From: Deltaproteobacteria bacterium
Lineage (GTDB): Bacteria; Desulfobacterota; Desulfobacteria; Desulfobacterales; JAUWMJ01
Assembly (NCBI GenBank): GCA_030638575.1
Contig: DAOWEJ010000103.1
Span: 5,417 to 69,416, forward strand
DNA length: 64,000 bases
Direction of reading: 5' to 3'
The translations under genes were made by a program, and so were the position numbers. Numbering within the stretch: the stretch's first letter is position 1; each line of letters opens with the position of its first letter. Below, in pieces: positions 28,469-52,451 of the stretch. The notes below the pieces were generated by a model, which did no database searches, was not told where the DNA came from, and saw only the letters and a list, made by a program, of their open reading frames with translations.

Positions 28469-28486
28469 AGTTACACCCTTTATTTT

Positions 28487-28681
28487 GACGTTCTCGTAAA
28501 AAGTCTCCCGCTTCAGTGCAGCGGGACGTTGTGCTGCATTTCGCAATCATTCAAAATACGATAAGTACTTCTTGTGATTATCCCGCTTTAGCGGGACACG
28601 CCTTTTTATCCCGTTGCTTTTTAGCGGGGGAATTTGAACTTTTTACGAAACCGTCTAAATCAGACTTTTTACGAGTTCATC
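28487..28681 (+). mobile_element. MITE-like repeat family B, copy B3
   Basis: GACGTTCTCGTAAAAAGTC...GACTTTTTACGAGTTCATC. Flanks are TTATTT(T)/TTATTT. Begins 19 nt upstream of the cNMP/CBS gene start. Confidence 0.85.
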
Positions 28682-28702: not shown

Positions 28703-28854
28703 GAGACCTTTGAAAAATGCCCAGTTTTGTTCAAGTTCAAGGAAGGCGATCCGCCTCAGGCGGATTAACCACAGGTCCGCCTGAGGCGGATCGAGGATTA
28801 CAATTTGAGCCTGACACAGAAATTGGGCAAAAGGGGGTGTTTTGCAAAGGTCTC
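28703..28854 (-). mobile_element. MITE-like repeat family A, copy A3 (inverted, double-hairpin variant)
   Basis: GAGACCTTTGAAAAATG...TTTTGCAAAGGTCTC. 5-bp direct repeat TAAAC (28698-28702 and 28855-28859). Carries two GATCCGCCTSAGGCGGA hairpins. Confidence 0.9.
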
Positions 28855-30376: not shown

Positions 30377-31363
30377 TCAGTGTCTGTTCGTTTTAATATT
30401 GAATTTAAGTAGTTTGTATCTCAAAGTTCTGGGGCTGATGTTAAGGATCCTTGCTGTCTTTTCTTTATCACATTCGGTTCTGTTTAGAGCTTCTAAAATG
30501 GCTTTTGTTTCTGCAGTTTTACGTACTTGTGCTAAATCCATCATTTGAGGTGGTTCTTGAAAATGCCAAAGAAAATCCGATGGGAGCGATCTTGGACTGA
30601 TAACATCTTTATCATTAACAATGAACACTCTTTCAATGAGATTTTTTAGTTCCCTGACATTTCCCGGCCAGTCATACCGAAGGAAAATATTAATGAGCTC
30701 CGGTGTGACTGATGGTTTCGGCTTTTTATATTTGGCCGCCATTTGATTAAGAAACTGATCTACCATTTTGGGGATGGCTTCTCTTCTTTTTCTAAGTGGT
30801 GGTAAGTGGATAGGTACAACCTGAATTCTGTAAAAAAGATCCTCCCGGAAAGAATCGGCTTTGATAAGAGATTTTAAATTTTTATTCGTTGCGGAAATCA
30901 GGCGGATCGATACCTGAATTTTTTTTTCGCCTCCGATCCTTCTGAACCTGAAATCTTCTAAAACTCGTAAAAAATCAACTTGATTTTCAACAGGTAGCTC
31001 AGAAATTTCGTCAAGAAACAGGGTGCCTTGATGTGCCATTTCAAAACAGCCCTTTTTTCTGCGGGTGGCACCTGTAAAAGCTCCTTTTTCATGCCCGAAC
31101 AGCTTGTCTTCAAACATTAAGCCTGAAAGAACACCACAATTTACAGGGACAAAGGGATTCACAGCTCTGGGACTAAGGAGGTGAATAATTTTAGCAAGCA
31201 ATTCCTTGCCGGTGCCACTTTCCCCGGTAATCAAAACATTTACATCAAATCCGGCTACCTGATTGACAACCTTCATTATAGAATGCATGGAAGAGCATTC
31301 TAAAACAAACTCTTGTATTGCAGCATCACGAAGAAACTTTATGTTGGATGATTGAAGTTTCAT
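30377..31363 (-). CDS. Sigma-54-dependent activator, AAA+ plus HTH only
   Basis: GESGTGKE, HEKGAFTGA, LFLDEI, and HTH KTARILNISPRTLRYKLLKF. I start it at MKLQSS (ATG 31363). The track's TTG start at 31507 would add 48 low-complexity residues. Confidence 0.85.
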   Translation of the reverse strand: MKLQSSNIKFLRDAAIQEFVLECSSMHSIMKVVNQVAGFDVNVLITGESGTGKELLAKIIHLLSPRAVNPFVPVNCGVLSGLMFEDKLFGHEKGAFTGATRRKKGCFEMAHQGTLFLDEISELPVENQVDFLRVLEDFRFRRIGGEKKIQVSIRLISATNKNLKSLIKADSFREDLFYRIQVVPIHLPPLRKRREAIPKMVDQFLNQMAAKYKKPKPSVTPELINIFLRYDWPGNVRELKNLIERVFIVNDKDVISPRSLPSDFLWHFQEPPQMMDLAQVRKTAETKAILEALNRTECDKEKTARILNISPRTLRYKLLKFNIKTNRH

Positions 31364-31580
31364 AAAATTTAAATGAAAAATCAGGTGTTGAAAAGTCGAG
31401 TGTGGGAGCCTGATCGGCGCATGAAGGGTAATTATGTTCAGGCAAATTCTTAAAATGCTTCGGCAGCGAAGCACCCTCAACAAATCAGGTTTTATCGGGA
31501 TTGTCAAAAAAAACAGTTTCCAGCCAAGCTTTAATTAAATCTGAATTGATTTAGAGTCAAGATAATTGGCAAGCTTTTTC

Positions 31581-31606
31581 ACGTTTTGGCAATATTTTGC
31601 CAAAAC
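31581..31606. promoter_or_regulatory. Perfect palindrome, candidate enhancer (UAS) for the adjacent sigma-54 activator
   Basis: CGTTTTGGCAA-tatt-TTGCCAAAACG is centred about 107 bp upstream of the -24 element. An extra half-site TTGGCAAG lies at 31565-31572. Confidence 0.55.
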
Positions 31607-31699
31607 GGTACCGTCGGTCTTTTTTTCTTAAAATGTCGGCGATTTTGATTACTGTTATTATAACAGTTAGTTATAAGCCATACCTATTATATTCAAATT

Positions 31700-31715
31700 T
31701 GGCACATCCTTTGCT
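31700..31715 (+). promoter_or_regulatory. Sigma-54 (-24/-12) promoter
   Basis: TGGCAC-atcct-TTGCT matches TGGCAC-N5-TTGCW exactly. It lies 40-65 nt upstream of the first CBS gene and is divergent from a sigma-54 activator gene. Confidence 0.8.
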
Positions 31716-31778
31716 TTACCTTATTACTTCGCTATTGCCTGTAGAGGCTCAGTTTTGAATTATAAGGATACAAACTTT

Positions 31779-32285
31779 ATGCCTTTTGAAAAGATCGTTA
31801 ATGAATTTATGCGCCCCTTAAACCAGTATCCTGTTTTAAGAACCGGGCAAACGGTAAGCACAGCTTTAAATCAAATCAAAAAGTCTTTACGCCGGAATAA
31901 ATTACCTCATCTAATTGTAGCGGAAAATGACGCTTCAGGGGCCGAAATAATCAAAGGGTTTATTACACCTTCGGATATAGTCTTCGGGATGGCTGAACAT
32001 TTTCTTAAAGGCGCGGAAAAAACCGGCCCGATTTTCTGGGAAGGCCAATTGGAAACAGAATGCCGGTTTGCCGTTCAAAAACGTATTGAAGAAGTCATGA
32101 CGCCTATTAAGGTCTGTATTAGAGATGATGAAATGCTGATGGAAGCGATTTTTTTATTAAAGAAATATCAGGTAGATCTTCTTCCGGTAGTTCATGATGA
32201 CGAAGTGATCGGATTGATCCATCTTGAAGACATTTTAAAGCAAATTGCTCATATGGCCATAAAAAAAATCCCAACCGGTATTTAA
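31779..32285 (+). CDS. Stand-alone CBS-pair protein
   Basis: Two CBS-like motifs (…IIKGFITPSDIVF…, …VIGLIHLEDILKQI). ATG at 31779 has AAGGA 9 nt upstream; the track's TTG start is at 31755. Confidence 0.75.
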   Translation: MPFEKIVNEFMRPLNQYPVLRTGQTVSTALNQIKKSLRRNKLPHLIVAENDASGAEIIKGFITPSDIVFGMAEHFLKGAEKTGPIFWEGQLETECRFAVQKRIEEVMTPIKVCIRDDEMLMEAIFLLKKYQVDLLPVVHDDEVIGLIHLEDILKQIAHMAIKKIPTGI

Positions 32286-32470
32286 AATAAATTCCGGCAG
32301 GCCGGATAAGGGGACAAGGGAATCGTATTATCAATATCCTTGTTTTAACATTAGAGCGAAAGGGATAAAGAAGTTTTTTTCCAATACCTGGGAAAAGCTA
32401 CTGAGCGTTTTTTATCGATAGTTCATTAATGTTACTTCATGCCCAACTATTTTAATTAAGGAGATTTTAT

Positions 32471-33025
32471 ATGAGAGCGATAATTGTAAAAAATTTGATG
32501 GTGCCACTCAAAGAATATGCAACTGTTTCCCAAGAGGCTACTCTGTACGAGGCAGTCCTTGCTTTGGAAAAAGCTCAAATGGCACTTGACCCGTCACAGC
32601 ATAAACACCGTGCAATATTGGTGCTTGATGAGAGCAGAAAAGTTTTGGGTAAAATAAGCATGAAAGATATCCTGATCGCACTTGAACCGAATTATGGGAA
32701 ATTGGAAGGTATGGGAGTGCTATCCAGTTCAGGATATAGTCCGGAGTTGATCAAGTCCATGCTCGAAGATAACGTTCTTTGGCGTGAACCTTTAGAGTTT
32801 GTTTGCAACAGGGCAACCAAACTGAAAGTGAGCGATTTTATCAGAGCTCCCCTGGATGGTGAGCATATTGATGAAAATGCTACACTGGGTGAGGCAATAC
32901 ACCAACTGGTTGTGTATCGTTTTCATTCTCTGCTTGTGACCAGCGGTGATGAGGTCGTGGGAGTATTAAGGCTGTCTGATGTATTCACAAAAATTTGTGA
33001 CAAGATCAAATCCTGCGAATTTTGA
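32471..33025 (+). CDS. Stand-alone CBS-pair protein
   Basis: VLGKISMKDILIAL and VVGVLRLSDVFTKI are CBS motifs. SD AAGGAG upstream. Confidence 0.75.
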   Translation: MRAIIVKNLMVPLKEYATVSQEATLYEAVLALEKAQMALDPSQHKHRAILVLDESRKVLGKISMKDILIALEPNYGKLEGMGVLSSSGYSPELIKSMLEDNVLWREPLEFVCNRATKLKVSDFIRAPLDGEHIDENATLGEAIHQLVVYRFHSLLVTSGDEVVGVLRLSDVFTKICDKIKSCEF

Positions 33026-33102
33026 ATCCGAACTGTTTTTGAGAACAGGCGAGATACAATTAAATAGAAATTTTAATGAGATACATAAGGAGGAGTTTTT
33101 TT

Positions 33103-34707
33103 ATGGACGTTAATACTCACGGAGAAAAAACCGGAATATTCGCCAAGAAAGGACTGTGGATCGGTATAGGTGTTGGTATTTTTATACTAGTAGCCTTTAT
33201 TTTGCCAACGCCCCAGTCTCTTATCGACGTAATGGAAAAATACGGGTATGTCCAAAAAATGATTGACTGGGAGATCGCCCATGACGTTAAGGAGGCTTCC
33301 GCTAAAACGATGATCGTACTGGGGATTGTTCCCATGGCGGTTATCTTTTTTGCCGTAGAGGCCCTCCCCATCGGCGCAACGGGCATCCTGATGCCTCTCA
33401 TGGCTTACTTTTTCGGGCTTCTTCCTTTCAACCTGATTGGGAAAACCTTTTCCGGTGATGCACCTTTGTTCATGCTTGGCGTTTTTGCCTTGGGAGCGAC
33501 GGTTGTAGAGGTAGGTTTCCATAAGCGATTGGCCGTTTGGCTGCTGGGATGGACCAAAGGGTTCTGGGTTCCTATGATCGTGTTGTGCATAAGTATGTCA
33601 ATCGTGGGTTCGTTTATGTCGGCCCCAGCTATGTGTTCTTTTATGGTGCCGGTGATAATGGCTGTCTATTACGGGTCGGTGAAGGCCAACAGCCCGGAGG
33701 GGAAGGTGGTTCACGATCCGGCTCTGGCCAAATTTCTGCTTTTTTCCCTTTGCTTCGCCCTGAATATGGGAGGGCCCGGAACACCTTCTGCCGGCGGACG
33801 TAATGTGATCATGATGGGTTTCTTTAACGAATACGGCATACCGATCACTTACTCCGGCTGGATGAAATACGGGTGGCCACTGGTGCCGCTCGGCAGTGTC
33901 ATGCTGTTGCTCTATATGGCAACTTTTTTTAGCAAGAAAATTAAGACTCGGGATCTGACCCCAGGGCTGCAATATATAAAGGACGAGACGCGCAAAATGG
34001 GAAATATGAGTTATGCCGAATATATCACTGCCGGGTCGCTTTTCCTCATTGTGGCCCTCTGGATATTTGGCGGAGAAGCAACGGGATTGGGCGGTCCGGC
34101 TCTTCTGGCTCTTGTAATACCGGTTTTATTCAAGACCGTGAAATTTGAAAATATACTGAACCGTATATCCTTTAATGCATGGTTCATGTACTGCGGTGCT
34201 TTGACTCTGGGCGCCCTTCTTAAGGAAAGTGGCGGCGCCCTGTGGCTGGCGACAACCTTTCTGGACGGGCTCTCACAAGTTGGCATGGATAAAGGTTACG
34301 GGTTGTGGGTCGGGATGTCCGCTTTCTCCGGTCTTGTTACCAATTTTATGTCTGATGCCGCCACCGTCGCCCTTATCGGGCCGATTGTCGTCCCCATGGG
34401 GATTATGACTCAGGTCGCCGGGGAGCCCTGGGCCATCGGCATGGCCGTGGCACTGGCATCTTCTTATGCCCATTTTCTTATTGTGGGCTCACCTGCCAAT
34501 GCGCTCACATTTGCACTGGGAGTTTATCCCGATACAAATAAGCGGGTCCTTGAAGCGATTGATTTTGTAAAATACGGTTTCGGATTTTTTGTGCTGTCCA
34601 TGCTTTTGCTCTGGATCGTCGGATTTTTTGTGGTCTATCCCATCGTTGGTTTTCCGGAAGGGGTTCTCGAGCAGGCAACGCAGGTGCTTCAAAGTACTGC
34701 CCGGTAG
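33103..34707 (+). CDS. DASS/SLC13-like (ArsB/NhaD superfamily) anion transporter
   Basis: About 12-14 TM helices with paired hairpin-like SFMS-APA / SDAATVAL motifs. ATG 33103 is preceded by AAGGAGGAG 7 nt upstream (track start 33076). Confidence 0.65.
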   Translation: MDVNTHGEKTGIFAKKGLWIGIGVGIFILVAFILPTPQSLIDVMEKYGYVQKMIDWEIAHDVKEASAKTMIVLGIVPMAVIFFAVEALPIGATGILMPLMAYFFGLLPFNLIGKTFSGDAPLFMLGVFALGATVVEVGFHKRLAVWLLGWTKGFWVPMIVLCISMSIVGSFMSAPAMCSFMVPVIMAVYYGSVKANSPEGKVVHDPALAKFLLFSLCFALNMGGPGTPSAGGRNVIMMGFFNEYGIPITYSGWMKYGWPLVPLGSVMLLLYMATFFSKKIKTRDLTPGLQYIKDETRKMGNMSYAEYITAGSLFLIVALWIFGGEATGLGGPALLALVIPVLFKTVKFENILNRISFNAWFMYCGALTLGALLKESGGALWLATTFLDGLSQVGMDKGYGLWVGMSAFSGLVTNFMSDAATVALIGPIVVPMGIMTQVAGEPWAIGMAVALASSYAHFLIVGSPANALTFALGVYPDTNKRVLEAIDFVKYGFGFFVLSMLLLWIVGFFVVYPIVGFPEGVLEQATQVLQSTAR

Positions 34708-34807
34708 CCTGCGAAAATATTAGCGGTCAGCTAAGATCTCTTTGAGCAATATTGTTTTTTACTTTTAACTTTTCAGGCCGTTCGGGTTGGGAGGTAAAGC
34801 ATAAACT

Positions 34808-36574
34808 ATGGAGTCTAAAATTTCTTCAAAAAGTTCAGTCCTGCATTCAATCTTAAGGGGTTTGTTCTCAGATGAACATGCCATTACGGCCATATTGGGT
34901 ATTATAGTGGGGGTGGCAGGTGGTTTTGGAGCTGTCGGGTTTCGCTACCTTATAAACTTTTTCCAGTTTATCTCTTATGGGTCTGCAGCCGAATTGCTTG
35001 GTGTGGTTCAATCGATTCCATGGTATTTCAGGATTGCAATTCCCGCCCTCGGCGGACTGATTGTGGGTCCGGTTGTGTATTTTTTCGCCAGAGAAGCCAA
35101 GGGACACGGCGTTCCGGAAGTCATGTACTCCGTTGCCCTCCAAAGGGGGATTATAAGAAAGCGGATCGTTGGTATCAAGGCTCTGGTATCCGCTGTTTGT
35201 ATCGGAACCGGCGGCTCGGTTGGAAGAGAGGGCCCCATCGTTCAAATCGGCTCTGCAGTCGGATCGACCCTTGGGCAACTATTTAAGGTGTCGGGTAATA
35301 GAATGAGAACTATGGTGGGCTGCGGCGCTGCTGCCGGTATTGCAGCCACTTTCAATGCCCCCATTGCCGGTTCCATTTTTGCCATTGAAATCATTCTGGG
35401 CGAATTTGAAATTGCCAGTTTCAGCCCTATCGTTATCTCTGCTGTTTCGGCCACGGCTATTTCACGCCATTTCCTCGGGGATATCCCTGCATTTATTCTT
35501 CCTGCCTATATCCTTCACAGCCCCCTGGAATTTCCTTTGTATGCTATTTTGGGTGTCTTTTGTGCCCTGGTTGCCGTGGCTTTTACTTTATTTCTCTACC
35601 GTGCAGAAGATGTATGGGATGCGATTAAGTTCCCCGAATATCTCAAGGCAGTCGTGGGGGGATTAATGATGGGAACGATGGGGCTTATGTTCCCTCAGGT
35701 TTTAGGTGTAGGTTACGGCGCTATTGATCTGGCGCTTATGGTAAAGCTGTCCTGGTGGTTCATGGGTCTTCTGGTTCTCTTTAAAATCCTGGCCACATCC
35801 ATTACGATCGGATCTGGAGGTTCCGGCGGCATTTTTGCGCCTTCACTTTTTATGGGTGCTATGGCGGGAGGCGCTTTTGGAACGGTCGCTCATCATTTCT
35901 TTCCTTCAGTGGCGGCCTCTGCCGGAGCTTATGCTGTTGTCGGCATGGGAGCGGTCGTGGCTGCCACCACACATGGCCCTTTACAAGCGATATTGATTAT
36001 TTTTGAAATGACCGGTGACTACAAAATAATTCTTCCACTGATGATTACATGCATTATCAGCACCCTGGTTGCAAGACGGCTATGCGGTGAATCTATTTAT
36101 ACCTTTAAATTAATAAGAAGGGGGATAAACATCAAGGCGGGCAAAGAGGTCAATGTATTAAAATCAATGTATGTAAAAGATGTGATGTATCATAATGTAG
36201 AAACAGTACCGGAGAGCATGTACCTGAAAGAATTCGCCGAAAACCTGCCGGAAAGCAGGTCTAACAATTTCATAGTTGTTAATGATGAAGAGGAAATTAC
36301 CGGGGTGCTTACATTTCTAGATTATTATGACGCCTTATTTCGTGGAAAGATAAATGATCAGATGGTAATAGGAGATATTGCAGCCCGGGATGTGGTTACT
36401 GTATCAAGGGAAGATAATATCAGCACGGCTCTGGGAAAAATCACTGCGGAGGATTTCTCTATTCTGCCCGTTGTGTCCTCGGACAATCCTTTAAAACTGT
36501 TAGGAATTCTGACGCGCAGAGATATCCTTGAAGCTTATGATGAGGCTGTGGTTAAGAAATCTATCAAAAAATAG
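34808..36574 (+). CDS. ClC-family chloride channel/antiporter with C-terminal CBS pair
   Basis: Selectivity-filter motifs GSVGREGP, GAAAGIAATFNAPIAG and GSGGIFAPSLF, with two CBS motifs at the C-terminus. Confidence 0.92.
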   Translation: MESKISSKSSVLHSILRGLFSDEHAITAILGIIVGVAGGFGAVGFRYLINFFQFISYGSAAELLGVVQSIPWYFRIAIPALGGLIVGPVVYFFAREAKGHGVPEVMYSVALQRGIIRKRIVGIKALVSAVCIGTGGSVGREGPIVQIGSAVGSTLGQLFKVSGNRMRTMVGCGAAAGIAATFNAPIAGSIFAIEIILGEFEIASFSPIVISAVSATAISRHFLGDIPAFILPAYILHSPLEFPLYAILGVFCALVAVAFTLFLYRAEDVWDAIKFPEYLKAVVGGLMMGTMGLMFPQVLGVGYGAIDLALMVKLSWWFMGLLVLFKILATSITIGSGGSGGIFAPSLFMGAMAGGAFGTVAHHFFPSVAASAGAYAVVGMGAVVAATTHGPLQAILIIFEMTGDYKIILPLMITCIISTLVARRLCGESIYTFKLIRRGINIKAGKEVNVLKSMYVKDVMYHNVETVPESMYLKEFAENLPESRSNNFIVVNDEEEITGVLTFLDYYDALFRGKINDQMVIGDIAARDVVTVSREDNISTALGKITAEDFSILPVVSSDNPLKLLGILTRRDILEAYDEAVVKKSIKK

Positions 36575-36904
36575 AAAGTATAACCTGAATTTTGGTAAAT
36601 GTTTAAGGGGTAAAGGTTTTATCCTTCCATGTAAGCAAATTTAAGTTCGGGTGTTATCCTTTGAAAAATGAATCAATTGCAACCATTAAGGCTCATAGGT
36701 CGCAGGAGGAATGCGAGTTATCTCCCACCTCCCGCATTCCTGTAGAGACCTTTGTCTCTCCTTTGGGTAGTTGAATTTATATTTGTTTTCTTGTATCATT
36801 AGTTTTCGTGACGGATTATTGGGAACTGCGCGCAGCGTAATACAACAAAATGCTACGTGACCGGTTGAAATAGACGACAACTATTTAATAAAACGGAGGA
36901 TATT

Positions 36905-37198
36905 ATGACACGATGCAAAAAATGCGGAAAAACCGGTCTTTTCCATAGAATTGAAAAAGATACCGGATTATGTCTTTCCTGCAATGAGAATTTTGCCAGG
37001 GAAGGAAAGGATCTGACTGAAAAAATTGTACGGGCTAAAAAAAATGCTGCTGAAGCAAAAGAACCTGCTCTGGTCCGGGAGAAGTGTAAAGAGGTCGAGC
37101 GTTACGGAAGCTATTTAATTGAATTACACAGACGCTACAATCTTGAACCCAGTCAGGAACTTCTGGATTTAATCGAAACCTACAAAGATAAAAGGTGA
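36905..37198 (+). CDS. Small zinc-ribbon protein (hypothetical)
   Basis: CKKCGK...CLSCN at the N-terminus and a helical charged remainder. SD ACGGAGGA upstream. Confidence 0.5.
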   Translation: MTRCKKCGKTGLFHRIEKDTGLCLSCNENFAREGKDLTEKIVRAKKNAAEAKEPALVREKCKEVERYGSYLIELHRRYNLEPSQELLDLIETYKDKR

Positions 37199-37251
37199 GT
37201 TTTATGAAAATAAAACCAAATTATTGGGATAAGTCCCTATATTTTTAAACT

Positions 37252-37426
37252 GAGCCAATTTCAAAACGTCCCCTTTTGTCCGATATCTGCGTCAGGTTCA
37301 AATTTTGGCACACAGTGAAGCTTTAGCGCTATCCTCGATCCGCCTCAGGCGGACCTGTGGTTAATCCGCCTGCGGCGGATCGCCTTCCTTGATCTTGAAC
37401 AAAATTGAACATTTTGAAACCGCCTC
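37252..37426 (+). mobile_element. MITE-like repeat family A, copy A4 (degenerate ends)
   Basis: GAGCCAATTTCAAAACG...ATTTTGAAACCGCCTC aligns to the family A termini. Internal double GATCCGCC hairpin module. The flanking AACT repeat is only partial. Confidence 0.7.
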
Positions 37427-37460
37427 AACTATTTGAAGTTTTCATCAAGAAGGAGGATAC

Positions 37461-37940
37461 ATGACTGATAAACATGACAAGATAGAAGATTTAATCATTC
37501 CACTGAGTGATTATCCCCATATGCCATACTGGGGAACACTTCGGGAGGCAATCGCCCAGCTCAATGTCGCATATGAAACAGGCCACCATACAGTCCTGGT
37601 CTTTGACGAAGGATACAAGCTTGTAGGGATGCTTTCACGAAGGAATATTTTAAAAGGTCTGGTTCCTAAATTTGCAAACCAATATTCAGAAGGCATACCC
37701 GTATTCTGGGATGACTTATTCGCGGCGGGAAGTGAAGAGCGACTTGCCCTTCCGATTAAAGATTTTATGTCTAAAGCTAAATCAAGTATGGATCCTAAAG
37801 ATAGTCTCCTTAAGGCGGCGTATATTCTCCTTGAGGAAAACACTTATGTACTTCCTGTTATGGAAGCGGAAAAGGTTATCGGTGTCGTGCGGATGGACGA
37901 TATATTCCATGAAATTACCAATGTCGTTTTAAAGCTGTAA
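37461..37940 (+). CDS. Stand-alone CBS-pair protein
   Basis: LVGMLSRRNILKGL and VIGVVRMDDIFHEI are CBS motifs. SD GAAGGAGGA upstream. Confidence 0.75.
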   Translation: MTDKHDKIEDLIIPLSDYPHMPYWGTLREAIAQLNVAYETGHHTVLVFDEGYKLVGMLSRRNILKGLVPKFANQYSEGIPVFWDDLFAAGSEERLALPIKDFMSKAKSSMDPKDSLLKAAYILLEENTYVLPVMEAEKVIGVVRMDDIFHEITNVVLKL

Positions 37941-38025
37941 TCAGTCTCATCCTGCAAATCAGTTAATAATGTAATTGTCTTAAGATAAAGATATCGGAGC
38001 AAAATGAATATTCCTTTTACTCCTT

Positions 38026-38184
38026 GAGACCTTTGCAAAACGGCACTTTTCGAAGTCTGCGCTTATCTGCCCGATTTCTGCGTCAGGCTCAAATTTCAAT
38101 CCTCGAAATATTAAATATATTCCTGTGGTTGAAATTTTCGCCTTTTTTGAACTCGAACAAAAATTACCATTTTTCAAAGGTCTC
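38026..38184 (+). mobile_element. MITE-like repeat family A, copy A5
   Basis: Canonical termini. 5-bp direct repeat TCCTT (38021-38025 and 38185-38189). Confidence 0.9.
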
Positions 38185-38264
38185 TCCTTTAAAGGCAAGC
38201 CCTTTGTATAAGAATATTTATTGGCTTTTTGTGAGTCAACATGATTATTACAGCAAGGAGATAA

Positions 38265-40853
38265 ATGGCGAAATTTTTAAGCATTTTCGATTTTTTTAGT
38301 AAAAATCGGCGTGACAAGGTCCTTAACGATGAAGATGAAAAAGAGCTTTTTGTCGAACGTTACAGGGCCTTTCGCGAGATCCTTAAAAACAACCACCAGG
38401 TGCTGATGACCATGGGAGATATGCAGGAAAAGGCCGGCGGAGCCTACCTGTTTGATAAAGCTTATATCAGGTCTTCAAGCAGCACTCTGCTTTTAGGGAT
38501 TGAGAAAATTATCGGCCAGTTGAATCTGCTTTCCGATGACCGGTATAAGGGCCTGATTGTTTCATTTCAAAAATGTATGGCCGGAATTCAAAATCTGCTG
38601 GAATCCAGGATCAGTATTCCTCAGACAGAATGTACTAAAGATTTAAAAAAAATAACTAAAAGAGATATTGCATCGGCCGGAGGAAAAATTGCAAATCTGG
38701 GAGAACTTACCTCTGCACTTGATCTGCCGATTCCCCCCGGCTTTGTTATAACGACATGGGCCTACAAGTCATTTATGGAATTTAATCAAATCCAGGATTT
38801 TTTAGTAGATGAGCTAAAGAAGCTGGATATTCGTAATTACGATGCTTTGCGGGCAACAACCGATATAATTCAAAAAAAAATTCTAAACGCCAACATTCCG
38901 CCCGAGCTGAAAAATGAAATATTGGACGCATACCGGACCCTTTGCCATGTAACGGGTCAGTATCAACTCAAAGTAGCCGTGCGAAGCAGCGCCATTCATG
39001 AAGATATAAGAGCAAGTTTTGCAGGGCAATATATAAGCGCTTTGGATGTGCCGGCGGACAGGATTTTGGATGAGTACAAATCCGTTATTACAAGCCAGTT
39101 TTCACCACGGGCGATTTTCTATTTTAAAGATAAACAATTTAATATTGAGAACATGGCGATGGCTGTCGGAGTCCTCGCCATGGTGGATGCTGATGTCAGC
39201 GGTGTCATGTATTCACGTGATCCTGCAAAGCCGGACGAGCACTGCTCCCTTATTAACGCGGTTTGGGGTCTGGGAGAATATGCTGTTGGCGGTGTGGTTT
39301 CAGCAGATTACTACTCTGTTTTAACAGAAAATGGTGAAAAAAATATTAGTCTGGAATGTGGCGATCAGAAAGTAATGATGGTTACAAATCCGGAAGGTGG
39401 AACAGACGAGGTCGAAGTTCCTCGGGATAAGCTTGGCACACCATGTCTGGATAACGACCAGATAAAAGACCTTGTTGTCATAGCAGAAAGATTAGAAGAT
39501 CATTTCGGGTATCCCCAGGATATTGAATGGTCAATTGATAAAAAAAACCGGATATACGTTTTGCAGAGTCGGCCTTTACACTTTGCCTCATCTGCACTTA
39601 GGTCCGGAACGAAAAGGCCTTCTGTTATCAAAGGACAAACAATTTTGCTTAATAAGGGGAAAGTAGTCTGTCGCGGGGTTGGTGCAGGGAATGTTCATAT
39701 TGTGCGGCGGGAAGAAGATATGGCGAATTTTCCTGATAGTGGGGTACTTGTGATCAGACATAGTCATCCTGAATTTGCAGTTTTGCTTAAAAAGGCGTCG
39801 GCTGTTATCTCCGATGTCGGCACACCTCTGGGTCACCTGGCTACAGTGGCACGAGAAAATAATGTGCCTGCGATTTTTAATACTGAAAATGCAACAAAAA
39901 TTCTCGAGAACGGCATGAAAGTTACAGTTGATGCCGTATACGCTAATGTTTACAAAGGAAGTGTAGATGAACTTTTAGGCCAGGGAAAAAAAGAGGACGA
40001 TTTTTCTTCATCTCCGGTTGTTAAGCAACTTAGAGAAATTTTAAAAGTAATTACGCCATTGAATCTGACCGATCCCCGCAGTCCATCATTTACTCACACG
40101 GGATGCAAGACTTTGCATGACATCACACGTTTTTCCCATGAAATGGCAATGCAGGAGATGTTTGATTTAACTATAGACAGCAATTTTTCCGAGCGATCGG
40201 CCAGGCGGCTGGTTGCTGAAATTCCGCTGCAATGGTGGGTCATCGATTTGGAAGACGGAATTCAAGGGGGCAGTAGAGGAAAAACCGTTAGAATTGACCA
40301 GATCGTCTCTATCCCAATGCGTGCCTTATGGGAAGGAATGATAGCTATTCCTTGGAAGGGTCCGCCGCCTATTGATACCAAAGGATTTCTTTCGGCGATG
40401 TTTAAGGCTTCGAGCGATCCAAGTATTGATCCCGCAGTATCAAAACGCTTTGCCGATAGAAATTATATTCTTGTTGCCAGGAACTTTTGCAATATAAGCG
40501 CACGACTCGGATTCCATTTTTCTACTACCGAATCATTTATTGACGAGGAGGAGAACCAGAATTATATCAGTTTCGTATTTACCGGCGGCGGTGCGGATGA
40601 TGGAAGAAAAAACCGACGGGTTAAATTAATATCAAGGCTTCTTGAACGATTCGACTTTCGTGTTACATTAAGAAACGATACTGTTTTTGCCCGTATAGAG
40701 GGGTATAAGCCTGCTTTCATGAAAGAGCGCCTTAAAGCGCTCGGTCATATTATTGTACATACACGTCAGATGGATATGGTTATGTACAATGACAAGATGG
40801 TTGACTGGTATTATAAAGAAATAGAGAAAGATATTTTATCTTTTTTTAGTTAA
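38265..40853 (+). CDS. PEP-utilising (PpsA/PPDK-like) enzyme with non-canonical C-terminal domain
   Basis: N-terminal ATP-grasp/PPDK_N region (ASAGGKIANLGEL...VAVRSSA..ED) and a swivel phosphohistidine domain (SDVGTPLGHLATVARENNVPA). In the last ~310 aa I see none of the PEP/pyruvate TIM-barrel motifs. Confidence 0.7.
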   Translation: MAKFLSIFDFFSKNRRDKVLNDEDEKELFVERYRAFREILKNNHQVLMTMGDMQEKAGGAYLFDKAYIRSSSSTLLLGIEKIIGQLNLLSDDRYKGLIVSFQKCMAGIQNLLESRISIPQTECTKDLKKITKRDIASAGGKIANLGELTSALDLPIPPGFVITTWAYKSFMEFNQIQDFLVDELKKLDIRNYDALRATTDIIQKKILNANIPPELKNEILDAYRTLCHVTGQYQLKVAVRSSAIHEDIRASFAGQYISALDVPADRILDEYKSVITSQFSPRAIFYFKDKQFNIENMAMAVGVLAMVDADVSGVMYSRDPAKPDEHCSLINAVWGLGEYAVGGVVSADYYSVLTENGEKNISLECGDQKVMMVTNPEGGTDEVEVPRDKLGTPCLDNDQIKDLVVIAERLEDHFGYPQDIEWSIDKKNRIYVLQSRPLHFASSALRSGTKRPSVIKGQTILLNKGKVVCRGVGAGNVHIVRREEDMANFPDSGVLVIRHSHPEFAVLLKKASAVISDVGTPLGHLATVARENNVPAIFNTENATKILENGMKVTVDAVYANVYKGSVDELLGQGKKEDDFSSSPVVKQLREILKVITPLNLTDPRSPSFTHTGCKTLHDITRFSHEMAMQEMFDLTIDSNFSERSARRLVAEIPLQWWVIDLEDGIQGGSRGKTVRIDQIVSIPMRALWEGMIAIPWKGPPPIDTKGFLSAMFKASSDPSIDPAVSKRFADRNYILVARNFCNISARLGFHFSTTESFIDEEENQNYISFVFTGGGADDGRKNRRVKLISRLLERFDFRVTLRNDTVFARIEGYKPAFMKERLKALGHIIVHTRQMDMVMYNDKMVDWYYKEIEKDILSFFS

Positions 40854-40924
40854 GAAAATTAAAGCCTGGTTATTTTATAACAAATATATTTATTTTTGCC
40901 CGGTTTTAAGAATAAGGTGTAATT

Positions 40925-43159
40925 TTGAAGAAACTGCAGGAGGATGTCAAATCCAAACATACTGTCAGGTTGGTTATTATTATCATCCTTGCCTTACTGG
41001 CTGGTGCGATTGCTCTGGGTTATTATTCCGTTAAGGATATGAAGCGAATGATCGGTAAGGATTTTAATGATCAACAGCTCGCTCTGGCCAAACATGCCTC
41101 TGTTATCGTTGAACAATATTTTAAGATTCTTAAAAACGAACTTCTCATATCAGGTCTATCTCCTTCAATTCAGTATATTGAATCCGTTTCCTGGCGTAAT
41201 AGAATGGAGATATCATTATCGAGTGTTCGTGAATACGGTGTCTTCAGGATTATGCTTATTGATGCTGATAAGATGCAGACTTACTCTATTGACTACAACC
41301 GGGCGTTGTTTCAAGAAAACGGTTTAGATACTGATGCCGAGTATTTTAAATGGTGCAAAAACCCAATAAATAAAAACAAAGTATTTATCAGCAGCGTGCG
41401 GGAAGGCATTGTCGAAAACTCGGAGCCCGGACTCGTTATGGAAATGGCAACGCCTGTTTACCAGATTTCTCCTGACGAAGCCCATCCCACACCGACTAAT
41501 AAATTCACAGGCGCACTTGTTTTTTCCTTAGACGTTGAATTGTTGACAAAAAGGGTTATAAGCCCAATCAGATCGGGCAAGAGCGGTTATGCATGGGCCA
41601 TTGATCAGCAAGGAAAGTTTCTATATCATATGGAGAAGAAGTTTATTGGTCAGAATGCCTTTGAAGCCAGAAAGCTCGAAGATTCGCATATTTCCTTTAC
41701 CAAGATCAATCTTATTCAAAAGGAGAAGATGTTGCAGGGAAAAGAAGGATCTTCCTGGTATATATCAGGCTGGCACCGGGGGGAAACCGGCCGGATGGAA
41801 AAACTAATCGCTTTTGCTCCTGTTTATATCGGTGGAGCTAACAACACACAAATATGGTCGGTGGCGGTCGTAGCGCCTATGAGTGAAGTGCAGGAAACGA
41901 TTTATATTGTTTATTTCAGGCAGGCAATGATCCAGCTCGTTTTTACTCTGGCTGTTATAGTCATCTTGTTTTTTCTCAGAGCAAATGAAATTAGCTGGAT
42001 TAAGACGCTTGAACGAAAGGTAAAAGAAAAAACCGAAGATCTCAAAGACTATGCCGAGCGCCTGAAAAATTCAGAGAAAAGATACCGAAGCCTTATTGAA
42101 TCGGCTGACGACATGATATATGCACTGGATAAGGATTGTAACATTCTTAGCATGAATCAGAGTTGGACACGGCTTACAGGGCAAAAGGCTGACAATATCA
42201 TTGGGAAAAATCTTTTAGATGTTATTAAATTCAGCAAACCGGATCATATTTGTGCGATTGTCGAAAAGGTATTAACGGAAGATCAGGCAATCGCTCAAGA
42301 AGAAGCTGCCAAAATAGGTGATCGTGAATACTGGCTTAACACCAAATACAATCGTGCAACAGGGATTGGAATTTTCGAGGATTTTGATAAGCCTTTTGTT
42401 CTAGTGATTGCACGAGATTTATCAGAACATAAACAGATCGAATCGCAGCTCTTTAATACACAGAAATTAGCTTCTCTGGGAGAACTATCGGCCGGGGTTG
42501 CTCACGAAATCAACAACCCTATTGCCATTATTCTTGGTTTTACCGAAATGTTGCTGGAAAAAACCACTGAAGAAACGAAGCAGCATAATATGCTTAAAGC
42601 GATTGAACGCCAGGGGGAAAACTGCAAACGGATCGTTGAAAATCTGCTGGCCTTTTCCAGAGTTCAAAAAAAGGAAACCACCTATACAGATGTAGCAGCC
42701 GACCTGCATAAGGTCATCGATGTGGTGGAAAATGTGCTTCTTACAGAAAAAATTGATATCAATATAAAAATTCCTGACAATCTTCCAAGAGTTTATGGTG
42801 ATAGCCAGGAGCTGGAGCAGGTTTATCTCAATATCATCAACAATGCTGTAGCAGCAATGGAGGACGGGGGTTTACTGTCTATTTCCGTAGATAAAGATAA
42901 GGAAATGATGCGGATAAGGTTTCAAGATACCGGCAGTGGGATTCAGCCTGAATATCTGGATAAAATTTTTGAACCGTTTTTTACGACAAAAGAGGTTGGA
43001 AGGGGGACCGGACTTGGCCTTTCCGTAAGCTATGGTATTGTAAAGAAGATTGGAGGAGAAATTTACGTAGATAGTCACCTTGCGTTGGAGGAGGATGCTG
43101 AATCAGGCACAATATTTACCATACTTCTTCCCATTGTGGATGATACAAAAGTGGCGTAA
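40925..43159 (+). CDS. Sensor histidine kinase (periplasmic Cache-like, PAS, HisKA, HATPase)
   Basis: TM-flanked extracytoplasmic domain and a PAS segment. H-box SAGVAHEINNP, N-box NIINNAVAAM, G-boxes DTGSGI and GTGLGLS. TTG start. Confidence 0.9.
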   Translation: MKKLQEDVKSKHTVRLVIIIILALLAGAIALGYYSVKDMKRMIGKDFNDQQLALAKHASVIVEQYFKILKNELLISGLSPSIQYIESVSWRNRMEISLSSVREYGVFRIMLIDADKMQTYSIDYNRALFQENGLDTDAEYFKWCKNPINKNKVFISSVREGIVENSEPGLVMEMATPVYQISPDEAHPTPTNKFTGALVFSLDVELLTKRVISPIRSGKSGYAWAIDQQGKFLYHMEKKFIGQNAFEARKLEDSHISFTKINLIQKEKMLQGKEGSSWYISGWHRGETGRMEKLIAFAPVYIGGANNTQIWSVAVVAPMSEVQETIYIVYFRQAMIQLVFTLAVIVILFFLRANEISWIKTLERKVKEKTEDLKDYAERLKNSEKRYRSLIESADDMIYALDKDCNILSMNQSWTRLTGQKADNIIGKNLLDVIKFSKPDHICAIVEKVLTEDQAIAQEEAAKIGDREYWLNTKYNRATGIGIFEDFDKPFVLVIARDLSEHKQIESQLFNTQKLASLGELSAGVAHEINNPIAIILGFTEMLLEKTTEETKQHNMLKAIERQGENCKRIVENLLAFSRVQKKETTYTDVAADLHKVIDVVENVLLTEKIDINIKIPDNLPRVYGDSQELEQVYLNIINNAVAAMEDGGLLSISVDKDKEMMRIRFQDTGSGIQPEYLDKIFEPFFTTKEVGRGTGLGLSVSYGIVKKIGGEIYVDSHLALEEDAESGTIFTILLPIVDDTKVA

Positions 43160-43207
43160 AGTCGCTAACAAAAAAATATTCTAAAAATTTAACCGGAGGA
43201 TAAGATT

Positions 43208-43615
43208 ATGCCTGAAAGGATAATCATCATTGACGATGAAATCGACATGTTAATGTTACTAAAAATGATTCTTGAAGATAGTACTGAATATGTAGTTGAA
43301 ACGACCAACAATCCGTCTGAAGGGTTGAAATTGCTAATTGAAAAAAAGTTTGATCTTGTAATTACTGATTTGAAGATGCCTGGTCTTGACGGTATGGAGC
43401 TTTATTCAGAGATAAATAAAATCCATCCTGATGTTCCGGTTATCATAATTACAGCTTACGGCTCTCAAGATGTAGCCGACGAAGCAATCCAAAAAGGTGT
43501 AACAGACTTTATTACCAAACCATTTAAAAAACAAAGAATTTTGTTTAGCATCAAAAAAGCGTTTGAGATAACAAAACTAAGAAAGGAAAATCTGGAACTT
43601 AAAGGAAAATTGTAA
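43208..43615 (+). CDS. Single-domain response regulator (CheY-like)
   Basis: IIIDDE...DLVITDLKMPGLDG...TAYG...KPF; 135 aa, receiver domain only. Confidence 0.9.
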   Translation: MPERIIIIDDEIDMLMLLKMILEDSTEYVVETTNNPSEGLKLLIEKKFDLVITDLKMPGLDGMELYSEINKIHPDVPVIIITAYGSQDVADEAIQKGVTDFITKPFKKQRILFSIKKAFEITKLRKENLELKGKL

Positions 43616-51984: not shown

Positions 51985-52451
51985 TAGAAATAGCCATTCC
52001 CGGATACAAGACCATAAAGCTTAAACACCTTGTCCTGGATCACAACGGCACCCTTGCCTGTGATGGAATTCTAATAAAAGGGGTTAAGGAATGCCTGGTG
52101 ACACTGGCATCTGATTTGCAAATCCATGTTCTTACTGCAGATACTTTCGGCAAGGCCCGTTCTCAGCTTGAAGGTGTTCCATGCGAATTGTCAATCCTTC
52201 CGGCAGACAATCAGGATGTGGGTAAACTGGAATATGTTAAAAACCTTGGCTGTGAAAATGCGGTTTGCATCGGAAACGGCCGTAACGATAAGTTAATGCT
52301 GAAAGAAGCAGTCCTTGGTATTGCTGTTGTTCTTAAAGAAGGTGTTGCTGTGGAAACCCTGGTTTCAGCAGATGTTGTTTGCACGAGTATTATTTCAGCT
52401 CTGGAGATTTTGATGCACCCACTGAGGCTGACTGCGACATTGCGGTCTTAA
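51981..52451 (+). CDS. HAD-superfamily protein (soluble P-type-ATPase-like HAD domain)
   Basis: LVLDHNGTLA (DxxGT motif I) and GNGRND (motif IV). ATGA start/stop overlap with the upstream gene. Confidence 0.7.
   Translation: MIEIAIPGYKTIKLKHLVLDHNGTLACDGILIKGVKECLVTLASDLQIHVLTADTFGKARSQLEGVPCELSILPADNQDVGKLEYVKNLGCENAVCIGNGRNDKLMLKEAVLGIAVVLKEGVAVETLVSADVVCTSIISALEILMHPLRLTATLRS

What the first reader, a model, noticed from the sequence alone, without database searches (positions are those of the whole stretch)
30377..37940. Sensor-less sigma-54 activator next to three CBS-only proteins, a DASS transporter and a CBS-bearing ClC channel
Downstream of the sigma-54 promoter lie two stand-alone CBS-pair proteins, a DASS/SLC13-like transporter and a ClC channel with its own CBS pair. 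A small zinc-ribbon protein follows, and a third CBS-only protein lies after a MITE. CBS pairs commonly bind adenosyl ligands or ions. Because the activator lacks any sensory domain, my hypothesis is that one or more CBS-only proteins act as ligand-sensing partner switches, by analogy with PspA-PspF or HrpV-HrpS. This would couple anion transport to energy or ionic status. I know of no described system with this layout.
Basis: inference. Interest (0 to 1): 0.62.

Follow-up and report, generated by a model that had tools for sequence, protein, structure and literature searches.

The report
Sigma-54 regulon with CBS-only partners
Marine sulfate-reducing bacteria carry a conserved gene cluster in which a transcription activator with no sensor of its own always sits beside a small CBS (nucleotide-sensor-like) protein that probably switches it; together they control anion transporters, a kinase-like enzyme and a two-component sensor, and the system has not been described or tested.

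Summary
The unit is larger than reported. It runs to 43615 and adds a PEP-synthase-like protein, a dCache histidine kinase and a receiver-only protein. Across about 40 Desulfobacterales loci the constant core is the sensor-less activator, divergent from a sigma-54 promoter (36 of 38 loci). One or two GGCAA-N4-TTGCC enhancer palindromes lie upstream, and CBS1 is the first gene. The other genes form modules: CBS2+DASS and (Zn-ribbon)+CBS3+PPS-like+HK+REC. When these modules are relocated they carry their own enhancer and sigma-54 promoter. The ClC occurs only in this window's immediate lineage, and in the closest relative it carries a fused receiver domain. In 78 loci of other Thermodesulfobacteriota the CBS-DASS and PPS-like-HK-REC modules occur without the activator, CBS1 or a sigma-54 promoter. 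Activator and CBS1 therefore come and go together, and their sequence divergences track each other (r=0.91). The best reading is that CBS1 is the trans-acting switch of the activator, as PspA is for PspF. CBS2 and CBS3 serve the transporter and the enzyme. No interaction or ligand is shown. This is a new variant of a known kind, of moderate interest.

The parts
30377..31363 (-). Sensor-less sigma-54 activator (bEBP): AAA+ core, lid and Fis-type HTH, 328 aa from the ATG at 31363
   Evidence: Pfam and NCBIfam. More than 120 orthologues at 64-94% identity are all 312-406 aa with no extra domain. The N-termini align with 0-16 residues before the AAA+ core.
31568..31606 (.). Enhancer (UAS): a degenerate distal site GGCAAGCTTTTTCA (31568-31581) and a perfect proximal palindrome GTTTTGGCAATATTTTGCCAAAAC (31583-31606), with centres 20 bp apart
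   Evidence: Sequence. It is the only exact GGCAA-N5-TGCC match in the 64-kb window. One or two such sites lie 110-135 bp upstream of the -24 element in most related loci.
31700..31715 (+). Sigma-54 promoter (-24 TGGCAC / -12 TTGCT)
   Evidence: 0 mismatches. An equivalent promoter lies upstream of CBS1 in 36 of 38 loci.
31779..32285 (+). CBS1: stand-alone CBS pair with a helical insert carrying GPIFWEGQLE. First gene of the operon and candidate switch of the activator
   Evidence: Pfam; alignment A1. The family is narrow: 8 clusters at E<1e-30 and none fused. 51 homologue clusters are all 157-186 aa. AF2 model pLDDT 90. Its divergence tracks that of the activator, r=0.91.
32471..33025 (+). 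CBS2: stand-alone CBS pair, partner of the DASS transporter
   Evidence: Pfam. A CBS gene lies immediately upstream of DASS in 29 of 30 loci. CBS2 subtype co-varies with DASS subtype, and the pair relocates together with its own UAS and promoter in L007 and L039.
33076..34707 (+). DASS/CitMHS-type anion transporter, substrate unknown
   Evidence: Pfam. TIGR00785 scores 131 bits, below its 198.6 cut-off. The best solved relative is VcINDY at E 1e-18.
34808..36574 (+). ClC with a C-terminal CBS pair, a lineage-specific addition to the operon
   Evidence: Pfam. Among the fetched Desulfobacterales loci that cover this part of the cluster, a ClC occurs only in the close relative L126, where it is 701 aa with a fused receiver domain. 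Its placement is confirmed by an independent metagenome contig spanning 34551-37276.
36905..37198 (+). 97-aa CxxC...CxxC (zinc-ribbon-like) protein that precedes CBS3 in many relatives
   Evidence: ORF; no Pfam or NCBIfam match. Homologues at 40-63% identity sit at the same position.
37212..37433 (.). MITE-like repeat inserted between the Zn-ribbon gene and CBS3
   Evidence: Absent from L126, where the gap is 34 bp. Word depth is about 5400 against about 10 in the flanks.
37461..37940 (+). CBS3: stand-alone CBS pair, partner of the PPS-like enzyme
   Evidence: Pfam. It lies immediately upstream of the PPS-like gene in 15 of 19 loci. Its divergence tracks that of the PPS-like protein, r=0.92. 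It is 39% identical to the CBS part of a REC::CBS fusion protein.
38026..38183 (.). Second MITE-like repeat, between CBS3 and the PPS-like gene
   Evidence: absent from L126.
38265..40853 (+). PEP-synthase-like phosphotransferase: ATP-grasp, swivel phospho-His domain, and a conserved 300-aa C-terminal domain that is not the PEP/pyruvate TIM barrel
   Evidence: Pfam. PDB sequence matches cover only residues 122-577. More than 120 full-length orthologues. The C-terminal model (pLDDT 77) has no PDB fold match below E 0.02.
40925..43159 (+). Sensor histidine kinase (dCache, PAS, HisKA, HATPase); best named match is AtoS
   Evidence: Pfam; NCBIfam. Conserved after the PPS-like gene.
43208..43615 (+). 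Receiver-only response regulator, 135 aa, NtrC-type receiver plus linker, with the DD/D/T/K receiver residues present
   Evidence: Sequence. Best NCBIfam matches are NtrX, GlrR and AtoC receivers. It is 50-66% identical at the end of the cluster in at least 10 loci.

Best explanation
This is a dedicated sigma-54 regulon of Desulfobacterales.

Shown or strongly supported by sequence:
- The activator consists only of an AAA+ core and an HTH.
- Tandem GGCAA-N4-TTGCC palindromes (putative enhancers) lie about 110-135 bp upstream of sigma-54 promoters, in the intergenic region next to the activator gene; binding by the activator is inferred, not tested.
- These promoters sit in front of up to three gene modules: CBS1; CBS2+DASS transporter; (Zn-ribbon)+CBS3+PPS-like phosphotransferase+dCache kinase+receiver.

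Inferred:
- Because the activator cannot sense anything itself, its ATPase is set in trans by CBS1, a CBS-pair paralogue that exists only together with this activator.
- CBS1 is encoded as the first gene of the activated operon, so the likeliest logic is PspA/PspF-like negative feedback. CBS1 would bind and hold the activator until a ligand changes its conformation and releases it. The ligand is probably an adenine nucleotide, or the phosphorylated receiver protein.
- CBS2 and CBS3 are sister paralogues doing the same job on the DASS transporter and the PPS-like enzyme.

In this window a CBS-bearing ClC has been added to the operon, and two MITEs have landed around CBS3.
For: Regulatory architecture:
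- The activator has no sensor.
- The promoter is conserved in 36 of 38 loci, and UAS palindromes are conserved in most loci.
- Relocated modules keep their own UAS and promoter in L007, L039 and L030.

CBS1-activator link:
- They are divergent neighbours in nearly all 37 CBS1-anchored loci.
- They are also neighbours in all 6 informative activator-anchored loci.
- When modules are shuffled, CBS1 stays behind a sigma-54 promoter with its UAS, and next to the activator gene in most cases.
- 78 loci of other Thermodesulfobacteriota carry CBS-DASS, PPS-like, HK and REC but have no activator, no CBS1 and essentially no sigma-54 promoter (1 of 60).
- Pairwise divergences correlate best for activator-CBS1 (r=0.91) and CBS3-PPS-like (r=0.92). 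Cross pairs are lower.
- Minimal loci such as Desulfococcus hold only the activator, CBS1, CBS2 and DASS. There the CBS proteins are the only cluster-encoded candidates.

CBS1 itself:
- It is a confident Bateman module (pLDDT 90). Its structural neighbours bind AMP, ATP or SAM.
- Its first CBS motif keeps a G-h-h-T-x-x-D/E pattern, read directly from the sequence.

Precedents:
- CBS pairs occur fused to sigma-54 activators, for example PrdR and in Clostridiales (PMC6615313).
- The stand-alone CBS protein DarB/CbpB is a ligand-controlled partner switch (PMC7900238, PMC8549634).
Against: - No interaction, ligand or transcript start is shown.
- No CBS1-type domain was found fused to an AAA+ activator, so there is no specific Rosetta-stone link.
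- In six loci CBS1 lies directly in front of DASS with no CBS2. There it could simply be the transporter's subunit.
- Synteny and correlated divergence can reflect shared inheritance of a module and need not mean physical contact. The 14 loci are not independent.
- Metatranscriptome contigs cover CBS2 to REC but not CBS1. Contig data cannot show absence.
- The sign of the effect (inhibitor or co-activator) is a guess by analogy.
Confidence: 0.45

Rival explanations
1. Split NtrC. The dCache/PAS kinase phosphorylates the receiver-only protein, which then controls the AAA+/HTH activator in trans. The CBS proteins act only on the transporters and the enzyme.
For: - The receiver's best matches are NtrX, GlrR and AtoC receivers including the linker (NtrX positions 3-134). 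The activator matches NtrX from position 134 onward. Together the two tile one NtrC-type regulator.
- The kinase best matches AtoS.
- HK and REC end the cluster in at least 10 loci.
- In L020-L023 the activator gene is followed on the same strand by PPS-like, HK and REC genes.
- Desulfococcus has a receiver-only gene next to the DASS gene.
Against: - The same PPS-like-HK-REC module, with REC 47-63% identical, is common in 78 loci that have no such activator. The receiver's conserved job is therefore something else.
- Several minimal loci (L004, L028, L035) have the activator but no adjacent HK/REC.
- REC is found fused to CBS pairs (P0334, P0386, and the ClC of L126) and not to this activator. 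This points to REC acting on CBS proteins.
Confidence: 0.15
2. No protein-level switch. The activator is constitutively active and the regulon is set by the activator's own level, sigma-54 availability or DNA architecture. CBS1 is just one more regulatory subunit or cargo of the transport and enzyme system.
For: - No sensor domain and no demonstrated partner.
- In six loci CBS1 directly precedes DASS with no CBS2.
- CBS1, CBS2 and CBS3 are paralogues at 22-27% identity with the same inserted linker. The default expectation is therefore a shared role on non-transcriptional targets.
Against: - Known sensor-less activators (PspF, HrpS) are controlled in trans (established knowledge; PMC4641369 makes the same argument for Desulfovibrio).
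- CBS1 is absent from all 78 loci that have the transporter and enzyme modules but no activator.
- CBS1 stays under the sigma-54 promoter (with the activator gene in most cases) when the DASS or PPS-like modules move away.
Confidence: 0.25
3. Any or all three CBS-only proteins switch the activator, and the DASS plus ClC pair is the conserved output coupling anion transport to chloride or energy status.
For: All three are paralogous CBS pairs in one sigma-54 operon. ClC genes also lie next to CBS-only genes in five unrelated loci (L109, L110, L113, L114, L116).
Against: - Among the fetched Desulfobacterales loci that cover this part of the cluster, a ClC occurs only in the closest relative L126.
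- CBS2 and CBS3 track DASS and the PPS-like enzyme, also in lineages without the activator.
Confidence: 0.08

Closest known systems
PspF/PspA phage-shock system (E. coli)
   Same: The sigma-54 activator consists only of an AAA+ core and an HTH. It is divergently transcribed from the operon it activates, and the first gene of that operon is the proposed trans-acting regulator, giving a negative-feedback topology.
   Different: CBS1 is a CBS pair, not a PspA/IM30 coiled-coil protein. The regulon encodes transporters, a phosphotransferase and a two-component pair, not membrane-stress effectors. Interaction is not shown here.
HrpR/HrpS-HrpV and NifA-NifL / FleQ-FleN anti-activator pairs
   Same: A bEBP is controlled by a separate protein instead of by a fused sensor.
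   Different: The partner fold is unrelated, there is no hetero-hexamer pair of activators, and the biology is different.
DarB/CbpB, stand-alone CBS-pair c-di-AMP receptors of Firmicutes (PMC7900238, PMC9293649, PMC8549634)
   Same: A small protein made only of a CBS pair binds and regulates unrelated target proteins depending on nucleotide occupancy.
   Different: The NCBIfam CbpB model scores 16-26 bits against a cut-off of 125. The targets there are Rel and pyruvate carboxylase, not a transcription activator. c-di-AMP binding is untested here.
PrdR and other CBS-fused sigma-54 activators of Clostridia (NF041552; PMC6615313)
   Same: A CBS pair serves as the sensory module of a sigma-54 activator. 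PrdR is the best-scoring named model for this activator's AAA+/HTH part.
   Different: In PrdR the CBS pair is fused in cis. Here it would act in trans, and CBS1 is not specifically related to PrdR's CBS region (E about 1e-5).
NtrC/AtoC/NtrX two-component sigma-54 response regulators
   Same: The kinase is AtoS-like. The receiver-only protein and the activator together tile the NtrC architecture.
   Different: Receiver and AAA+ core are separate genes about 12 kb apart, and the receiver also occurs widely without the activator.
CBS-regulated transporters (MgtE, OpuCA, eukaryotic and bacterial ClC)
   Same: CBS pairs gate ion or osmolyte transport in response to nucleotides. The window's ClC carries one, and CBS2 is inferred to do this for DASS in trans.
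   Different: For DASS the CBS pair is a separate polypeptide. Separate CBS subunits for DASS transporters are not described, to my knowledge.

Membership tests
Bacterial enhancer-binding protein (sigma-54 activator) | AAA+ sigma-54 interaction domain with Walker A/B and the GAFTGA loop | tested here: met
   PF00158 at 6e-64. GESGTGKE, LFLDEI and GAFTGA can be read in the translation.
Bacterial enhancer-binding protein (sigma-54 activator) | C-terminal DNA-binding HTH and a cognate upstream enhancer | tested here: met
   HTH_8 at 1.6e-09. Conserved tandem palindromes lie 110-135 bp upstream of the -24 element. Binding itself was not tested.
Bacterial enhancer-binding protein (sigma-54 activator) | Target promoter of the -24 GG / -12 GC class | tested here: met
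   TGGCAC-N5-TTGCT at 31700, conserved in 36 of 38 loci.
PspF-type (sensor-less, trans-regulated) activators | No N-terminal regulatory domain | tested here: met
   Orthologues have 0-16 residues before the AAA+ core.
PspF-type (sensor-less, trans-regulated) activators | PspF equivalog score, and a PspA/IM30 partner in the regulon | tested here: not met
   TIGR02974 scores 261 bits against a cut-off of 444. No cluster protein matches PspA.
PspF-type (sensor-less, trans-regulated) activators | Physical inhibition of the ATPase by the partner | not testable with these tools
   Needs biochemistry or a multimer structure prediction with interface scores.
NtrC-family two-component response regulator | Receiver domain fused N-terminal to the AAA+ core | tested here: not met
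   The activator has no Response_reg domain. A separate receiver lies at 43208-43615.
DarB/CbpB c-di-AMP receptor | Score above the NF041630 cut-off (125 bits) | tested here: not met
   CBS1 scores 16.4, CBS2 26.4 and CBS3 19.1 bits.
CBS-pair (Bateman) proteins | Two tandem CBS motifs forming one module | tested here: met
   Pfam CBS match for CBS1-3. The CBS1 model has pLDDT 90, and its Foldseek top hits are all CBS pairs at probability 1.00.
DASS / SLC13 transporters | Na_sulph_symp / CitMHS membrane domain | tested here: met
   PF03600 at 127 bits and PF00939 at 88 bits, both above cut-off. TIGR00785 is below its cut-off (131 vs 198.6), so the subfamily and substrate are unassigned.
ClC channel/exchanger | Voltage_CLC domain with the GREGP gating-Glu motif, GxFxP, and the conserved Tyr | tested here: met
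   PF00654 at 342 bits. Alignment to StClC (1kpl, S. typhimurium) shows GREGP, GIFAP and the Tyr kept.
ClC channel/exchanger | Central Ser (GSGIP) and internal proton Glu (E203) of the Cl-/H+ exchangers | tested here: not met
   GHGVPE replaces GSGIPE, and Ile stands at the E203 position. The transport mode and anion are therefore uncertain.
PEP synthase (pyruvate, water dikinase) | ATP-grasp (PPDK_N) plus swivel phospho-His domain | tested here: met
   PF01326 at 9e-91 and PF00391 at 1.5e-14. The His of the GH-LATVARE motif is nearly invariant.
PEP synthase (pyruvate, water dikinase) | C-terminal PEP/pyruvate-binding TIM barrel (PEP-utilizers_C) | tested here: not met
   The last 300 residues have no Pfam match. 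PDB PEP synthases align only to residues 122-577. The model of the C-terminal part has no fold match. Equivalog scores are far below cut-off.

The most novel reading that the evidence does not exclude
A family of long-linker CBS-pair proteins serves as interchangeable regulatory subunits for three unrelated targets: an AAA+ sigma-54 activator (CBS1), a DASS anion transporter (CBS2) and a PPS-like phosphotransferase (CBS3). These subunits would respond to a ligand and to receiver phosphorylation. CBS1 would then be the first CBS-type anti-activator or co-activator of a bacterial enhancer-binding protein. The dCache kinase and receiver would feed into the CBS proteins, as the REC::CBS and ClC-CBS-REC fusions suggest. 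The result would be an undescribed signalling-transport system widespread in Thermodesulfobacteriota.
Probability: 0.3. Interest if true: 0.75.

Novelty: new variant of a known kind. Interest (0 to 1): 0.55.

Why it matters
Desulfobacteria encode more sigma-54 activators than almost any other bacteria (PMC12316311). Several activators in sulfate reducers lack a sensor, and their partners are unknown (PMC4641369). This cluster names a concrete, testable partner for one such activator. CBS1 would be a new class of trans-acting regulator for AAA+ transcription activators.

The cluster also exposes a widely conserved and wholly uncharacterised gene set in abundant sediment and cold-seep sulfate reducers. 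That set comprises a CBS-paired DASS transporter, a PEP-synthase-like enzyme with a novel C-terminal domain, and a dCache kinase with a receiver. The substrate and signal of this set are open questions.

Tried and rejected
1. Rosetta-stone search for CBS1 fused to an AAA+ activator. None was found among 910 representatives or 51 homologue clusters. The resemblance of the CBS proteins to PrdR's CBS region is generic.

2. c-di-AMP as the ligand. A CdaA gene lies 4.4 kb away in the window, and a DAC gene abuts the activator in Desulfococcus and its relative. No DAC gene lies within 10 kb in the other lineages, and the CbpB model fails. This is kept only as a lead.

3. The PPS-like protein as a true PEP synthase. 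Rejected, because it has no C-terminal TIM barrel.

4. Additional sigma-54 promoters or UAS sites in the window's internal spacers. None found. No plus-strand terminator-like site lies in a spacer either.

5. Operon mapping from metatranscriptomes. Only unstranded assembled contigs are available. They show that CBS2 to REC sequences are present in RNA-labelled runs, but they cannot define transcripts.

6. A linker-fused activator+CBS1 co-fold. Not run, because the tool returns no interface or PAE data and would not discriminate.

7. Literature. No paper was found that describes a CBS-only partner of a bEBP or this gene layout.

Full report
**What is there**

The region 30377-43615 holds, in order:

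- A sigma-54 activator on the minus strand (30377-31363 from the conserved ATG).
- A 415-bp control region.
- On the plus strand: CBS1 (31779-32285), CBS2 (32471-33025), a DASS/CitMHS transporter (33076-34707) and a ClC with its own CBS pair (34808-36574).
- Then a 97-aa CxxC...CxxC protein (36905-37198), CBS3 (37461-37940), an 862-aa PEP-synthase-like protein (38265-40853), a dCache-PAS histidine kinase (40925-43159) and a 135-aa receiver-only protein (43208-43615).

These assignments rest. The activator has Sigma54_activat, AAA_lid_14 and HTH_8 with an intact GAFTGA loop, and nothing else. More than 120 orthologues at 64-94% identity are all 312-406 aa with the same three domains. Their alignment shows 0-16 residues before the AAA+ core.

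**Control region**

A zero-mismatch sigma-54 promoter (TGGCACatcctTTGCT) lies at 31700-31715, 64 bp upstream of the CBS1 start. In 64 kb such matches are no more frequent than chance, so the argument rests on conservation.

- An equivalent -24/-12 element lies 28-107 bp upstream of CBS1 in 36 of 38 related loci.
- About 110-135 bp further upstream lie one or two 14-bp palindromes, GGCAA-N4-TTGCC, with centres 20 bp apart.
- In the window the proximal site is the perfect palindrome GTTTTGGCAATATTTTGCCAAAAC (31583-31606). It is the only exact match in the 64-kb window.

**Conservation and modules**

A CBS1 profile retrieved 37 loci from species-representative genomes. All are Desulfobacterales/Desulfobacteria MAGs. 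Look-ups from activator orthologues added Desulfococcus, Eth-SRB1 and others. Gene order was obtained by tblastn.

- The activator and CBS1 are divergent neighbours almost everywhere.
- CBS2, or a second subtype CBS2b, is followed by one of three DASS subtypes. CBS2b always goes with DASSb, and CBS2 goes with the other two subtypes.
- (Zn-ribbon)-CBS3-PPS-like-HK(s)-REC forms a third block.
- Where blocks are rearranged, each carries its own palindrome and sigma-54 promoter. This holds for CBS2b-DASSb in L007 and L039 and for Zn-ribbon-CBS3-PPS-like in L030. All three blocks therefore belong to one regulon.
- Minimal loci such as Desulfococcus contain only the activator, CBS1, CBS2 and DASS.

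**The ClC**

Among the fetched Desulfobacterales loci that cover this part of the cluster, a ClC occurs only in L126, the closest relative that covers this part (PPS-like 91% identical). There the ClC is 701 aa and carries a C-terminal receiver domain after the CBS pair.

- In the window the receiver-coding segment of about 547 bp is replaced by 209 unrelated bases (36551-36759).
- An independent cold-seep metagenome contig spans 34551-37276 and is identical to the window, so the arrangement is not an assembly artefact.
- L126 also lacks both repeat insertions that flank CBS3 in the window.
- These MITE-like elements have at least six copies in the window. Their word depth in the metagenome is about 500-fold that of the flanks.

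**An older system without the activator**

The exhaustive search with CBS1 found only eight clusters at E<1e-30, all of them stand-alone proteins. It also found two proteins that join a receiver domain to a CBS pair of this long-linker type. One of them is 39% identical to CBS3 over its full length.

Scanning genomes with that protein gave 78 loci, mostly Desulfobaccales and Syntrophobacterales. Their content:

- A CBS (or REC::CBS) gene directly followed by DASSb: 57 loci.
- PPS-like genes: 44 loci.
- dCache kinases: 27 loci.
- Receivers 47-63% identical to the window's: 23 loci.
- Pairs of ClC genes next to a CBS-only gene: 5 loci.
- The sensor-less activator or CBS1: none.
- A sigma-54 promoter upstream of CBS-DASS: 1 of 60.

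The activator, CBS1, the enhancer and the sigma-54 promoter are therefore a package. This package has been laid over an older CBS-transporter and CBS-enzyme-kinase-receiver system.

**Who pairs with whom**

Pairwise identities over 14 loci that have all four proteins correlate most strongly for two pairs:

- Activator-CBS1: Pearson 0.91, Spearman 0.92.
- CBS3-PPS-like: 0.92 and 0.87.
- Cross pairs: Pearson 0.70-0.85, Spearman 0.55-0.79.

This agrees with adjacency. A CBS gene lies directly upstream of DASS in 29 of 30 cases and directly upstream of the PPS-like gene in 15 of 19. The data are not independent and show shared history, not contact. Even so, they single out CBS1 as the activator's companion.

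**The proteins**

- CBS1 folds confidently (pLDDT 90, pTM 0.81) as a Bateman module with a helical insert at residues 64-98 that carries the family signature GPIFWEGQLE. Its structural neighbours are CBS pairs solved with AMP, ATP, ADP or SAM. None is specific.
- The PPS-like protein has the ATP-grasp and the phospho-His swivel domain. Its strongly conserved last 300 residues have no Pfam match and no fold match. It is therefore not a PEP synthase but a phosphotransferase with an unknown acceptor.
- The kinase best matches AtoS. The receiver best matches NtrX, GlrR and AtoC receivers including the linker.

**Mechanism**

Shown or strongly supported:

- A sensor-less activator.
- Conserved enhancer palindromes next to the activator gene, and sigma-54 promoters in front of each module; that the activator binds them is inferred.
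- A regulon of three modules.

Inferred:

- The activator is controlled in trans by CBS1, most simply as a PspA-like inhibitor. CBS1 is encoded as the first gene of the activated operon and would be released by a ligand or by the phosphorylated receiver.
- CBS2 and CBS3 play the same part for DASS and for the PPS-like enzyme.
- The receiver fusions (REC::CBS next to DASS, and ClC-CBS-REC in L126) suggest that phosphorylation by the dCache kinase acts through the CBS modules. That would link the two candidate inputs.

Rivals:

- A 'split NtrC' in which the receiver-only protein acts directly on the activator. It is supported by the way the two proteins tile NtrX and AtoC. It is weakened because the receiver is conserved without the activator.
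- A constitutively active activator, with CBS1 as plain cargo.

**Expression**

Three runs labelled metatranscriptomic contain contigs matching CBS2, DASS, ClC, the Zn-ribbon gene, CBS3, the PPS-like gene and HK/REC. None matches CBS1, and only one matches the activator. These are unstranded assembled contigs that may include DNA. They show presence at most, not operon structure.

**Literature**

Kazakov et al. (PMC4641369) noted four sensor-less activators in Desulfovibrio vulgaris and proposed unknown partner proteins. Surveys list CBS among the domains fused to activators (PMC6615313). Stand-alone CBS proteins acting as partner switches are established for DarB/CbpB (PMC7900238, PMC9293649, PMC8549634). 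No paper was found that describes a CBS-only partner of an activator or this gene layout.

**Verdict**

This is a new variant of a known kind, a trans-regulated sensor-less sigma-54 activator whose candidate partner is of a new fold class. It sits in a widespread uncharacterised transport-signalling cluster. Interest is moderate (0.55), because the key step is inferred but can be tested directly in a cultured organism.

Noticed in passing
window 28703-28854, 37212-37433, 38026-38183, 62495-62637, 3941-4078, 8148-8191: A MITE-like repeat of about 160 bp with GAGACCTTTG(A/C)AAAA inverted termini, in at least six copies in the window. Word depth in a cold-seep metagenome is about 5400-5700 against about 10 for the flanks. 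The two copies around CBS3 are absent from the closest relative L126. Fragments also lie near the same cluster in other Desulfobacterales loci (L012, L019, L022, L025, L041, L042).
   Followed up: partly
L126 438-2543; window 36551-36759: In the closest relative the ClC is 701 aa: Voltage_CLC, CBS pair and a C-terminal receiver domain. In the window the receiver-coding segment (about 547 bp) is replaced by 209 unrelated bases, which contain a 13-mer identical to the MITE terminus (CCTTTGAAAAATG).
   Followed up: partly
window 34808-36574: The ClC has GHGVPE where E. coli ClC-ec1 has GSGIPE, so His replaces the central Ser. It has Ile at the internal proton-Glu (E203) position. GREGP, GIFAP and the conserved Tyr are kept. 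Its anion selectivity and its mode (exchanger or channel) are therefore uncertain.
   Followed up: partly
window 24830-26008 and 26138-28546; L009 11074-12510; L044 11083-12520: A CdaA-type diadenylate cyclase fused to a YbbR domain lies 4.4 kb from the activator, followed by a 2x cNMP-binding-CBS-DUF294 nucleotidyltransferase. In Desulfococcus and a relative, a different DAC-domain gene directly abuts the activator gene. This is a possible c-di-AMP link to the CBS proteins, but it appears in only two lineages.
   Followed up: partly
L046-L058, L118: In Desulfobaccales and Syntrophobacterales genomes, proteins that fuse a receiver domain to a long-linker CBS pair sit directly upstream of a DASSb transporter gene. 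No sigma-54 activator or promoter is nearby.
   Followed up: partly
L109, L110, L113, L114, L116: Two tandem ClC genes lie upstream of a stand-alone CBS gene of the same subfamily, on the opposite strand. This is a second, independent association of these CBS-only proteins with anion channels.
   Followed up: no
window 39942-40853: The last 300 residues of the PPS-like protein are very well conserved (motifs ITPLNLTDPRSP, PWKGPPP(I/V)DTKGF, RLGFHFSTTE). The domain has no Pfam match and no PDB fold match, so it may be a new substrate-binding domain.
   Followed up: partly
L020-L023: In these loci a second PPS-like gene, a PAS kinase and a receiver follow the activator gene on its own strand, in addition to the divergent CBS1 operon with its own PPS-like copy.
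   Followed up: no
L007 3011-6137; L045 11039-13857; L124 11161-13558: The genes flanking the activator on its far side vary, but they are often nutrient-status or anion-transport genes: GlnD plus PII, Usp plus SulP/STAS, and PhoU plus a Na/Pi cotransporter.
   Followed up: no
window 52105-52120: This is the only other zero-mismatch sigma-54 consensus in the window (TGGCATctgatTTGCA, plus strand). It lies inside the ORF 51981-52451. No GGCAA-N5-TGCC palindrome with 0-1 mismatch lies in the usual 110-135 bp enhancer position upstream of it.
   Followed up: no
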